Of a DNA stretch of 64,000 nt, positions 44,401-47,400 are shown one piece after another (the stretch's first letter is position 1; every line of letters starts with the position of its first letter). This DNA comes from Negaprion brevirostris. Taxonomy: Eukaryota. The stretch is taken from positions 26,304,108 through 26,368,107 of the forward strand of contig JARDVH010000146.1 of the NCBI GenBank assembly GCA_030324005.1. The letters run 5' to 3'. Made by a program: the position numbers.

Positions 44401-47400
44401 GATGCAGAGGGCAAGTACTGGGATGGAACTAGAGAGGAAGGAATTCAGATTTGTGGAATTTAGTTCTGATTTTCTTCTTCAAACGAAGATGGACAAGGAG
44501 GGAGTGCAGAGAGTTGTTCAAAATCAAATCCTGACAGCCGGTTCAGTCAGCAGAGAACTGAGATTGGAGACCTAAAGGATGAGGGCTTACAGAACACATC
44601 ATTATGATCTTAGTTGCTCTTAATTGGAAGGTGGTGACAATTGACTAAACTGTAACTCTCAACGGGGAAAACCGCTTTGGGAAAGGAGTTGGCAGTACAG
44701 GAGCAACTGGATAGCATTTTTCCAGGAGAGACAGATACAGTGGACCCAATGGCATTCCTCTGCGCTGTATTACTGCATTTAGTTCATAGAATCTCGATAG
44801 CGCAGAGGGAGACCATTCAGCCCATCGAGTTTGCACTGACCATAATGCCCTCCTGGCCCTATTCCCATAACTCCATGTATTTACCCTGCAAATCCCTCTG
44901 ACACTAGGATCAATTTTAGCATGGCCAATCCACCTAACCCGCACATCTTTTGGACTGTGGGGAGGAAACTGGAGCATCCGGAGGAAACCCACGCAGATAC
45001 AGGGAGAATGTGCAAACTCCACATAGACAGTGACCCGAGGCTGGAATCAAACCCGGGTCCCTGGTGTTGTAAGGCAGTAGTGTTAACCACTGTGCTACCG
45101 TGCTGCCCCTTCTTGATACCTGGACCATTCTCTGTAACTCCTGATGGCTTTTGTGTAATGTGTAATGGTGGAAGGTAGCCTGATTGGTGAACATTTACCA
45201 TCTGTTTTTCTAAAGATTGTAATTGATGTTTTTTTTCTTTCTAAAACCTTTACAAACCTTCCCAGTCACAACAGCTATGAAATGTTGTGATGTTATGCAG
45301 TTCTGATTGGACTTCATATGTCCTTCTTTTTCTGGAGCTGTTGAGTGCCCAACCCAACCCGGTCTATGGAGGAGGGATAAAATCAGTTCCGAAGCTTCGG
45401 TCAGGGGACAAATCCTGACAATGAGCTGATTGTCCAGTGTTTTCTCCCTCTTATGCAGATGCTCCTCAGTCTCCAGGTACTCTGAGCCGGGAGGCTCGCT
45501 CGACTGCCAACAAGAACCGGATTGTGGCGTTGGAGAAACAGCTCGACATTGAGATGAAGGTGAAGCAAGGAGCTGAGAATATGATCCAGATGTACTCCAG
45601 CGGACCCATCAAGGTAAGGCAGAAATTTCCCAGCATTGAGCTGGCCTTGCTGATGCCTAACAGCTGGTTGAGGTATTTGCTTTTGAGAACGAAGCAGGAA
45701 TAACCTCCTGCTGGGGTGTGTTTAGTGGTGGAGGGAGTGCAGGTGGGTGGGATTTCCTTCACCTGATCATTGGCCATCTCTGTGAAATGTGAAGAAGAAG
45801 AAGCTGCAGTCCCAGCCCTTGGTGACACAAGACAGCCCAATGGCTCACTGCGTTTGAAGCTCTAAAACAATTATAGCAGCTTGAATAGAGAAAAGAAAAA
45901 TGGTTTTGGTCATTTATAATGCTGGAAGGAATCTTCCTGTCAATAAATGACATTAGAAATAAGAGCAAGAGTAGGCCATTTGGCCCCTTAAGTCTGCTAT
46001 GCCAATCAGTAAGATCACTACTTATCTGATTGTGGCCTGGGTTCGGGTGAAGATGGCAGCGGCTGGAGGTCACCCAGGCAATGGGTATGGTCAAGATGGG
46101 AAGTACGGTTTTGGTCGTCTTATATGAGAAAGGATATACTGGCACTGGACAGGGTGCAGAGGAGATTCACTAGGTTGATTCCGGTGTGGTTGCCTTATGA
46201 GGTGAGACCGAGTAGACTGGGGCTATTCTCATTGGAATTCAGAAGAATGAGGGGAGATCTTAGAGAAACATATAAGATAGAAGCAGGGAAGTTGTTTCAA
46301 CTGGCGAGTGAAACTAGAACTAGGGAGCATAGCCTTAAAGTAAGGGGAAGCAGATTTAGAACTGAGTTGAGGGGAAACTTCTTCACAAACAGAGTTGTGA
46401 ATCTGTGGAATTCCCTGCCCAAGTGAAGCAGTTGAGGCTACCACATTGAATGTTTTTAAGGCAAGGATAGATAAATTTTTGAACAGTAAAGGAATTAAGA
46501 GTCATAGTGAGCGGACGAGTAATTGGAGCTCAGTCCACGAAAAGATCAGCCATGATCATATTGAATGGCAGAGCAGGCTCGAGGGGCCAGATGGCCTACT
46601 CCTGCGCCTAGTTCTTATGTTCCTCTACCTGCTTAGGTTTTTCCTTTACCATCTCATCAAACAGAGTGTCAGCTAACTGTACCTCAACTCCTTCATCTTT
46701 TTTGTACTCCTTTCCTGTTTCAACTTATGGCTGTGGAATCTTGTCACCACACAGTCCAGAAAAATACCAGGGTATTTTTCTTTTAATCCCTCAATTCCCT
46801 GGTTTTCTTTTGGCAATTTCACTTCAATAGGCATCACTTGCACCTGTGATCCAGCTATATTGTTTCTGTGAATAAACTATATTCCTGGAATACCCAAGTT
46901 TTCTATTATTTCCACTATCACTCCCTAGTCTTAATTTGACTTTCTAGCGATGTCTTACACAGGGGAACATTACTACTATCTTGGGAAATATTTCAGAAAG
47001 AGTGCAAATATTTTCATCTCTTACTATTCGAGACAGACTAGTTCCCATGTCTCTCAATATTTTAACTTCTTTACCTCTTCTACCTGAGTAAATCTTATCC
47101 ACACAGGTCAAGTCTTTGAAAAGGTCAGGCACTATTTTACAATCCAGCACGTGCCTAGGCTATGCACTCTCCTTCAGTTCCTCAACTTCTCTCTGGATTT
47201 CCTTCACTCCTTCAACTAATCCCACTGTTTGAGCCTCTTTTACCACATCCTTTATCCCAATGCCTTTCTTAAGCCACTAAAGTACTGTGACTTTATGTGT
47301 CCCATCTTATTACAGTGAAAACACCTGAGCTCTTTCACCTCTTTTCCACCCTTTTAAGTTTCTTTTTACACGTGATAAACTGTTCCCAACGTAATCTACT

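What the first reader, a model, noticed from the sequence alone, without database searches (positions are those of the whole stretch)
45440..45620. Intact orphan PKN-family exon lying antisense inside a MACF1 intron
Seen: a stop-free 155-nt exon with a good polypyrimidine/AG acceptor and AAG|GTAAGG donor, encoding 52 aa. Known: the peptide matches the HR1b repeat of PKN Rho-effector kinases, and the DAPQSPG start is PKN1-like as I recall it. I found no other PKN exon (HR1a, HR1c, C2, kinase) in 64 kb, and both splice sites with intronic flanks are retained, so this is genomic DNA and not a processed retrocopy. Inference: a DNA-level duplicated exon (raw material for exon shuffling), or a piece of the true PKN locus mis-scaffolded here. 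The lack of any decay favours a very recent copy or misassembly.
Basis: partly seen in the sequence, partly recalled or inferred. Interest (0 to 1): 0.8.

Follow-up and report, generated by a model that had tools for sequence, protein, structure and literature searches.

The report
Lone PKN1-type exon inside MACF1 intron
A perfectly intact exon of a shark PKN kinase gene sits alone, backwards, in an intron of the MACF1 gene, but it lies on a small gap-bounded piece of the assembly, so it is most likely an ordinary exon put in the wrong place, or else a young duplicated gene fragment.

Summary
Window 45459-45613 (+) is a stop-free 155-nt exon with a pyrimidine-rich AG acceptor and an AAG|GTAAGG donor. 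Its 52 residues are the first half of the HR1b repeat of a PKN kinase. They are 52 of 52 identical to a 288-aa 'PKN2-like' model of Mustelus asterias and 86-98% identical to other cartilaginous-fish PKNs, which a tree places on the PKN1 side. The exon lies antisense in the 12.0-kb intron between two consecutive MACF1 exons. No other PKN exon is in the 62.3 kb that is not N.

New here: no uninterrupted sequence joins the exon to either MACF1 exon. It sits on a 6.4-kb block between N runs. That block holds no MACF1 exon, is richer in G+C, and lies in a zone holding 6 of the window's 8 SINE-like copies. Without the N-bounded material the intron would be 3.5 kb.

Best reading (0.45): an ordinary native PKN1-type exon on a small contig placed here by scaffolding. 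Main rival (0.35): a real, young DNA-level copy. An interleaved real gene is unlikely (0.07).

No shark genome was searchable, so copy number and the native locus stayed unchecked. Interest is low.

The parts
45459..45613 (+). 155-nt exon encoding the linker and first helix of PKN HR1b (D)APQSPG...SSGPIK. It starts in phase 1 and ends on a whole codon.
45415..45458 (+). Acceptor region: CTGAC branch-point-like motif, pyrimidine tract (14 of 15 at -5 to -19), AG at 45457-45458.
   Evidence: read directly
45614..45661 (+). Donor GTAAGG plus intron flank. Translated, it is 12 of 16 identical to the read-through stretch of the M. asterias model P0002.
45108..45949 (.). 842-nt stretch around the exon with no second copy in the window.
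42198..48625 (.). 6,428-nt block between N runs that carries the PKN exon and no MACF1 exon. G+C of its unique DNA is 0.41.
42098..42197 (.). 100-N run separating the block from the sequence that carries MACF1 exon 38692-38940.
48626..48646 (.). 21-N run at the right end of the block.
48647..49865 (.). 1,219-nt piece between N runs, also without a MACF1 exon. It holds two SINE-like copies, the second cut off by the next N run.
49866..50589 (.). 724-N run before the sequence that carries MACF1 exon 50976-51071.
38941..50975 (-). Host MACF1 intron of 12,035 nt, the largest of 22 measured (median 1,305; next largest 4,642). It would be 3,543 nt without 42098-50589.
38692..38940 (-). MACF1 spectrin-repeat exon just downstream of the host intron in MACF1 orientation.
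50976..51071 (-). Small MACF1 exon just upstream of the host intron in MACF1 orientation. It is consecutive with 38692-38940 in three MACF1 proteins.
44784..45107 (.). SINE-like repeat copy next to the unique stretch. Other copies lie at 42513-42690, 42970-43241, 44039-44374, 49072-49290, 49547-49865, 27712-28053 and 32956-33133.
45950..46622 (.). Two LINE 3'-end fragments in opposite orientation, 45950-46039 (-) and 46108-46622 (+), the latter 82% identical to 40578-41116. G+C drops to the window's level to the right of them.

Best explanation
The exon is the ordinary, functional exon of this shark's PKN1-type kinase gene that encodes the inter-repeat linker and the first helix of HR1b, the Rac/Rho-binding antiparallel coiled coil. 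It does nothing in the MACF1 intron. It appears there because a small, repeat-rich contig from the PKN1-type locus was placed into a gap of the MACF1 scaffold during scaffolding. That contig is 42198-48625, probably together with 48647-49865.

**Shown:** the identity of the exon, its intact splice sites, its PKN intron flank, its isolation from MACF1 exons by N runs, and the compositional break.

**Inferred:** that the N runs are assembly gaps, and that the placement is wrong.
For: 1. **The exon shows no decay.** It is 52 of 52 identical to M. asterias P0002 and differs by 1 residue each from Carcharodon P0004 and Hypanus P0003. CpG observed/expected is 0.63 in the exon, against 0.16 in its flanks and 0.26 in the window. 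This is what a native, selected exon looks like.
2. **The flank is PKN intron.** It is 12 of 16 identical to the read-through of P0002. The exon is better kept than the flank: 0 of 52 against 4 of 16 codons differ, Fisher P=0.002.
3. **No uninterrupted path leads to a MACF1 exon.** A 100-N run lies on the left, and 21-N and 724-N runs lie on the right. The block carries no MACF1 exon.
4. **The two MACF1 exons on either side are consecutive in three MACF1 proteins**, so MACF1 lacks nothing there.
5. **The host intron is an outlier.** It is 12,035 nt, against a median of 1,305 for 22 introns and a next largest of 4,642. Without 42098-50589 it is 3,543 nt.
6. **There is a compositional break.** Six of 8 SINE-like copies lie in the 7.6 kb between the outer N runs (binomial P=7.7e-5, a post hoc test). 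Unique-DNA G+C there is 0.402, against 0.345-0.384 in 81 sliding 7.7-kb windows of the anchored parts.
7. **The gaps look like real assembly gaps.** Mixed N-run lengths (5 to 724, eight of exactly 100) and gaps that sit inside repeat copies look to me like a fragmented short-read assembly. That rests on my own knowledge of assembly conventions.
Against: - No read, depth or second-copy evidence was available, so wrong placement is inferred and not shown.
- All sequence pieces that carry MACF1 exons are in correct order and orientation. Scaffolding is therefore good locally.
- The 21-N and 724-N runs look like size-estimated gaps of a primary scaffolder. If so, read pairs tie the block to the MACF1 exon at 50976-51071 (convention recalled, not tested).
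- The G+C-rich part ends at about 46.0-46.6 kb, inside the block and not at an N run. 46623-48625 has G+C 0.37-0.39 and 48647-49865 has 0.351, like the MACF1 background.
- A LINE endonuclease-like piece lies right of the 100-N run and, by recalled motifs, a reverse-transcriptase-like piece lies left of it on the same strand. This could be one old element continuing across a true join. Tool support is weak: Pfam E 0.084 for one side and nothing for the other, plus one unnamed hit at 8.1e-5.
- The operators state that N runs may also be deliberate masks.
- In a chromosome-scale M. asterias record the only model with this exon is truncated and odd. The locus may be truly unusual in houndsharks.
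Confidence: 0.45

Rival explanations
1. Real, young DNA-level copy. A few kb of the PKN1-type locus (intron, exon, intron) was duplicated into the MACF1 intron in antisense, by segmental duplication or by repair-mediated or transposon-associated insertion. It is not yet decayed and has no function so far. It is a potential exon-shuffling substrate only.
For: - Both splice sites and the intron flank are retained.
- There is extra DNA in an otherwise typical intron: 12.0 kb against 3.5 kb.
- The foreign composition of 42198 to about 46000 ends inside uninterrupted sequence near two inverted LINE 3' fragments at 45950-46622. That could be a real junction.
- Local scaffolding is otherwise correct.
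- Possibly size-estimated gaps lie on the right side.
- Given one N run per about 4.9 kb in this window, a real insert would be cut off from both exons by N runs about half the time (my estimate).
Against: - No second copy or junction could be seen.
- No target-site duplication of 8 nt or more was found between 45060-45300 and 45930-46120 (0 found; shuffles give 0.59 on average).
- Zero amino-acid changes requires a very recent event.
- The left boundary of the foreign-looking DNA coincides with an N run.
Confidence: 0.35
2. Real interleaved gene. The PKN1-type gene truly overlaps MACF1 in antisense, with introns longer than 45 kb upstream and 18 kb downstream. The exon is spliced into a normal PKN mRNA from here.
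For: - The exon is intact and selected.
- M. asterias has only a truncated 288-aa model, with the second half of HR1b replaced by unrelated residues. That would fit a gene with very long or unusual introns.
Against: - No other PKN exon lies in 62.3 kb of non-N sequence on either strand.
- The exon would be interleaved with more than 20 MACF1 exons.
- The odd middle part and the HR1c exon of P0002 are not found in the 18 kb downstream.
- The compositional break fits inserted DNA better than an old shared locus.
Confidence: 0.07
3. Second selected copy in the same genome. The window is from M. asterias itself. Then P0002 and the window would be two copies whose intron flanks have diverged by about 8% while the exon stayed identical. 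That would mean selection on an orphan exon.
For: 52 of 52 identity with P0002, against 4 of 16 differing codons just past the donor.
Against: - The pattern is equally expected for orthologues in two related species.
- The exon differs from a lamniform shark and a ray by only one residue each, so it does not fix the species.
- P0002 lies on an 85.7-Mb record, whereas this window has 13 N runs in 64 kb. The window is unlikely to be the same assembly.
Confidence: 0.03
4. Chance open frame or processed retrocopy.
For: None beyond the bare open frame.
Against: - Profile E-value of 2.7e-30.
- 100% identity to an annotated PKN model.
- Single exon with acceptor, donor and homologous intron flank. 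No neighbouring exons are fused to it.
Confidence: 0.01

Closest known systems
Native HR1b-encoding exon of vertebrate PKN1 (PRK1)
   Same: - The sequence is 52 of 52 identical to M. asterias P0002 and 71-80% identical to reptile and sturgeon proteins named PKN1.
- It occupies the position of the second HR1 repeat.
- It matches the PKN1 HR1b structures 4NKG, 1URF and 2RMK.
- The donor boundary is the same as in P0002, whose read-through starts VRQ = GTAAGGCAG.
   Different: - It stands alone. HR1a, the second half of HR1b, HR1c, C2 and the kinase domain are absent from the window.
- It lies antisense within MACF1.
Non-processed gene fragments / duplicated exons as raw material for exon shuffling, including LINE-mediated transduction (recalled from the literature; no paper read here)
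   Same: One exon with intronic flanks inside an intron of an unrelated gene. A LINE 3' fragment abuts the unique stretch at 45950.
   Different: - No second copy was seen.
- No target-site duplication was found.
- There is no poly(A) tail. The LINE is of a type I recall as CR1-like, without poly(A).
- No evidence of use by any transcript.
Misplaced small contigs in scaffolded short-read assemblies
   Same: The block is bounded by N runs, has no anchor to the host gene, is repeat-rich, and breaks composition with its surroundings.
   Different: The read-level evidence that defines a misjoin could not be examined. Neighbouring joins are all correct.
Nested antisense genes within introns
   Same: Opposite strand, inside a host intron.
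   Different: Only half a domain is encoded. No promoter, first exon or last exon was found in the window.

Membership tests
HR1 repeat (Pfam PF02185) of PKN/PRK kinases | Sequence match to the HR1 profile above the curated cut-off | tested here: met
   37.1 bits against a cut-off of 33.1, E 3.2e-9
HR1 repeat (Pfam PF02185) of PKN/PRK kinases | Complete antiparallel coiled coil (both helices of the repeat) | tested here: not met
   Only profile positions 1-27 of 67 are encoded. In full-length relatives the repeat continues with DRKMLSTAQQ..., which the window lacks.
PKN HR1b specifically | Aligns to the second of the three HR1 repeats and to solved HR1b chains | tested here: met
   Aligns to residues 106-157 of P0004, between HR1a and HR1c. 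Matches 4nkg_B and 1urf_A/2rmk, which a review names as HR1b.
PKN1 orthology group (against PKN2) | Full-length relatives of the exon group with PKN1 and not with PKN2 | tested here: met
   Tree of 15 named proteins. The 4 cartilaginous-fish proteins join 6 PKN1 proteins, with 100/100 support for the split from 5 PKN2 proteins. PKN3 and true cartilaginous-fish PKN2 were not included.
Complete PKN gene at this locus | Other PKN exons (HR1a, HR1c, C2, kinase) on the same strand nearby | tested here: not met
   tblastn with 3 proteins at E<=10, and a profile against 3,333 six-frame pieces, found only this exon. The 1,714 N were not searched.
Processed retrocopy | Fused exons without introns, poly(A) tail, target-site duplication | tested here: not met
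   Single exon with both splice sites and a homologous intron flank. No direct repeat of 8 nt or more at the edges of the unique stretch.
LINE 3' transduction | LINE 3' end followed by the carried DNA, the whole flanked by target-site duplications | tested here: not met
   A minus-strand LINE 3' fragment ends at 45950 next to the unique stretch, but no target-site duplication was found.
Scaffolding misjoin | Block bounded by gaps and without any anchor to the host locus | tested here: met
   N runs lie at 42098-42197 and 48626-48646. No MACF1 exon lies in 42198-48625 or in 48647-49865.
Scaffolding misjoin | Reads or read pairs contradict the join; the block belongs elsewhere | not testable with these tools
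MACF1 (host gene) | Colinear spectrin-repeat exons matching MACF1 proteins | tested here: met
   The best named hit is 'MACF1 factor, partial'. In one search, 10 proteins had E<=0.001 among 323 candidates. More than 20 exons are colinear with P0122-P0124 at 52-89% identity. The paralogue DST was not excluded by a tree.

The most novel reading that the evidence does not exclude
The exon is really there in the animal. It would be a young DNA-level copy of a single, fully splice-competent PKN1-type exon, dropped antisense into a MACF1 intron. That is a caught-in-the-act substrate for exon shuffling or for an antisense cassette exon.

The boldest form is that the PKN1-type gene of the houndshark lineage is truly rearranged, and this exon is one of its scattered parts. 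The only M. asterias model with this exon is a truncated 288-aa protein lacking the second half of HR1b. I give this form about 0.05.
Probability: 0.35. Interest if true: 0.45.

Novelty: already known. Interest (0 to 1): 0.2.

Why it matters
**If it is an artefact.** The value is practical. It flags an unanchored 6.4-7.7 kb insert in the MACF1 scaffold. It also predicts that the PKN1-type gene model of this assembly lacks its HR1b first-half exon.

**If it is real.** It would be a clean example of a single intact exon, with both splice sites, copied at the DNA level into the intron of an unrelated gene. That is the first step of exon shuffling, which is rarely seen before decay. Slowly evolving shark genomes may preserve such intermediates for a long time.

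Neither outcome changes what is known about PKN or MACF1 function.

Tried and rejected
1. **Other PKN exons.** tblastn and a profile search found none.
2. **More of P0002 in the window.** Local alignment of its odd middle part to the three forward frames of 45614-47200 aligned only the first 16 codons (score 59). The other two alignments (scores 28 and 34, gapped) are noise.
3. **LINE transduction.** No target-site duplication was found, so this was rejected.
4. **One old LINE spanning the 100-N run at 42098.**
   - Pfam gave only Exo_endo_phos_2 at E 0.084 (13.2 bits against a cut-off of 27.4) for the right side, and nothing for the left.
   - The representative search gave 1 protein at E 8.1e-5, unnamed and 2,025 aa. 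I did not fetch or use it.
   - The test stayed inconclusive.
5. **Self-similarity at the N-run flanks.**
   - Only the runs at 2489 and 49866 have repeat copies at a flank; the run at 59557 has a 26-nt match.
   - None was found for 42098 or 48626.
6. **Cluster members of the shark PKN proteins.** This was meant to look for a full-length M. asterias protein.
   - As a substitute, one search listed no M. asterias protein among the best 120 of 3,753 proteins with E<=1e-100, within the 536-1,708 aa range.
   - Shorter fragments were not looked for.
7. **Rfam on the whole window.** 0 matches.
8. **Literature.**
   - Searches found nothing on a PKN exon in MACF1.
   - One search listed 8 of the 11 papers holding 2 of the 3 terms. 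None listed holds all three, and by title all are unrelated.
   - Supplements are closed and were not seen.
9. **Species assignment from MACF1.** Shark MACF1 proteins are longer than the 2,000-aa limit of the 'longer' search, so the window's species could not be fixed.
10. **Chance ORF.** Rejected.
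Full report
**What is there.** On the + strand, 45459-45613 is a 155-nt open stretch. A 15-nt tract with 14 pyrimidines and an AG (45457-45458) precede it, and GTAAGG follows it. It begins with the last two bases of a codon and ends on a whole codon. The 51 full codons hold no stop. The window holds 13 N runs, 1,714 N in all. I neither filled nor searched them.

**What it encodes.**
- Pfam HR1 is matched above its cut-off (37.1 against 33.1 bits, E 3.2e-9), but only profile positions 1-27 of 67.
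- The only PDB sequences found (2 of 2 at E<=1) are PKN1 chains: 4nkg_B, and 1urf_A with 2rmk. Passages of a review (PMC7925014) name 2RMK and 4NKG as HR1b of PRK1/PKN1. [quoted passage not shown]
- Against the large protein set, 614 proteins had E<=0.001 among 621 candidates, and the best 120 were listed.
  - The top hit is P0002, a 288-aa 'serine/threonine-protein kinase N2-like [Mustelus asterias]', 100% identical over the whole query.
  - Other sharks, rays and a chimaera follow at 86-98%.
  - Proteins named PKN1 from reptiles and sturgeons follow at 71-80%.
  - Mammalian PKN2 follows at 57-65%.
- In the alignment the exon covers the linker after HR1a and the first helix of the second HR1 repeat. 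Full-length relatives continue with DRKMLSTAQQ..., which the window lacks.
- A tree of 15 named proteins puts the 4 cartilaginous-fish proteins with 6 PKN1 proteins and apart from 5 PKN2 proteins (100/100). PKN3 was not included.

**The exon is alone.**
- tblastn with P0002, P0004 and P0007 at E<=10 hit only 45458-45676, plus an 11-residue cross-match of HR1a to the same exon.
- A profile built from 10 full-length PKN1-type proteins was run against 3,333 six-frame pieces. I dropped the window's own row, and I dropped P0002 and P0013 for their odd inserts. It gave this exon at E 2.7e-30 and nothing better than E 5.6 otherwise.

**The flank is PKN intron.**
- P0002 reads through the same donor. 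After ...GPIK it continues VRQRFPSIELPLPMPD. The window gives [16 protein letters not shown], 12 of 16 identical.
- This shows three things. The exon boundary is the native one. The copy carries intron DNA, so it is not a retrocopy. P0002 was modelled from a different sequence than this window.
- The exon is better kept than the flank (0 of 52 against 4 of 16 codons differ, Fisher P=0.002). That fits a selected exon compared between two related species. It rules out an old, unconstrained copy of the P0002 sequence.
- The rest of P0002's odd middle part does not align to the window.

**The host.**
- One minus-strand exon, searched alone, found MACF1 fragments of birds and a snake: 10 proteins with E<=0.001 among 323 candidates. 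Six unnamed ones were not used.
- tblastn with the three named ones maps more than 20 exons on the minus strand, in order and without a missing stretch.
- Reading the splice phases had suggested a missing exon between 52232 and 38933. One search found it at 51071-50976.
- The PKN exon therefore lies antisense in the intron between two consecutive MACF1 exons, 50976-51071 and 38692-38940.
- I searched exons one by one and built no joined spliced model.
- The window is cartilaginous-fish DNA, not human.

- The host intron is 12,035 nt, the largest of 22 measured (median 1,305, next largest 4,642).
- It is broken by N runs at 42098-42197 (100 N), 48626-48646 (21 N) and 49866-50589 (724 N).
- The PKN exon sits on the 6,428-nt block 42198-48625. 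Neither that block nor the 1,219-nt piece to its right holds a MACF1 exon. No uninterrupted sequence therefore joins the PKN exon to MACF1.
- Without 42098-50589 the intron would be 3,543 nt.
- The N-bounded material also differs from the rest of the window.
  - It holds 6 of the window's 8 copies of a roughly 320-nt SINE-like repeat in 7.6 kb (P=7.7e-5, post hoc).
  - Its unique DNA has G+C 0.402, against 0.345-0.384 in 81 sliding windows of the anchored parts.
- All repeats in the window are old; the highest identity among 85 self-matches is 89%. The 842 nt around the exon (45108-45949) have no second copy in the window.

**Weighing the readings.**
- A native exon on a misplaced contig explains every point above. 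I rank it first (0.45).
- Several points speak against certainty.
  - All MACF1-bearing pieces are correctly ordered.
  - The 21-N and 724-N runs look like size-estimated gaps, which would mean read-pair support (my recollection of assembler conventions).
  - The G+C-rich part ends near 46.0-46.6 kb, at two inverted LINE 3' fragments and inside uninterrupted sequence. It does not end at an N run.
  - The operators note that N runs may also be masks.
- A real, young DNA-level duplicate fits these points and gets 0.35.
  - I found no target-site duplication and no second copy.
- A truly interleaved PKN gene (0.07) would need introns longer than 45 kb and 18 kb, threaded through more than 20 MACF1 exons.
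- The idea that the window and P0002 are two copies in one genome (0.03) would be the most interesting, but it is not needed to explain the data.

**What stayed unchecked.**
- No shark genome, reads or RNA-seq were searchable.
- Shark MACF1 proteins exceed the length limit of the search used, so the window's species is not fixed.
- One search listed no M. asterias protein of 536-1,708 aa among the best 120 of 3,753 hits. In that species the only model seen with this exon is therefore the truncated P0002.
- A paper on a related houndshark genome mentions the M. asterias assembly as 3.68 Gbp (PMC13434710, passages).
- Literature searches (listings only, apart from the two papers named) gave nothing on a PKN exon in MACF1.

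**Verdict.** The identification is right. The location is probably an assembly artefact, or else a young gene-fragment duplicate. Both are known kinds of thing. Interest is low until copy number and the joins are checked.

Noticed in passing
P0002 (Mustelus asterias, 288 aa), compared with window 45614-45661: The only M. asterias protein found with this exon is a truncated model. It reads through the exon's donor, replaces the second half of HR1b by about 78 unrelated residues, resumes at HR1c and stops after ...KALSEP. No M. asterias protein of 536-1,708 aa appeared among the best 120 PKN1-type hits. The PKN1-type locus may be hard to assemble or annotate, or truly unusual, in houndsharks.
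   Followed up: partly
proteins P0003, P0004, P0007, P0016: Cartilaginous-fish proteins named 'PKN2' by their source fall on the PKN1 side of a PKN1/PKN2 tree (100/100). The names look wrong. PKN3 was not in the tree.
   Followed up: partly
window 42513-45107 and 49072-49865, against 27712-28053 and 32956-33133: A SINE-like repeat of about 320 nt (copies 73-88% alike) is crowded into the N-bounded part of one intron: 6 of 8 copies in 7.6 kb.
   Followed up: yes
window 2338-2900 around the N run 2489-2642: The two flanks of this 154-N run match one LINE copy (40443-41116) colinearly on the minus strand, and a run of about 18 G borders the N run. The gap sits inside a repeat, as expected for a real assembly gap.
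   Followed up: partly
window 40366-41116 (+), 46013-46622 (+), 26280-26400 (+), 41402-42293 (-): Several decayed LINE fragments carry the C-terminal motif ...VQRRFTRLIP...LGLFSLEFRRMRGDL..., which I recall as CR1-like. Pfam gave no significant match.
   Followed up: partly
window 48093-48192: Two tandem 50-nt CT-rich units (82% alike) lie inside a long low-complexity open frame, 47974-48456 (+).
   Followed up: no
window 38531-38691 and 22521-22606 (-): Very short MACF1 introns (161 and 86 nt) stand next to introns of several kb. Intron sizes in this part of MACF1 range from 86 to 4,642 nt, apart from the 12-kb host intron.
   Followed up: no
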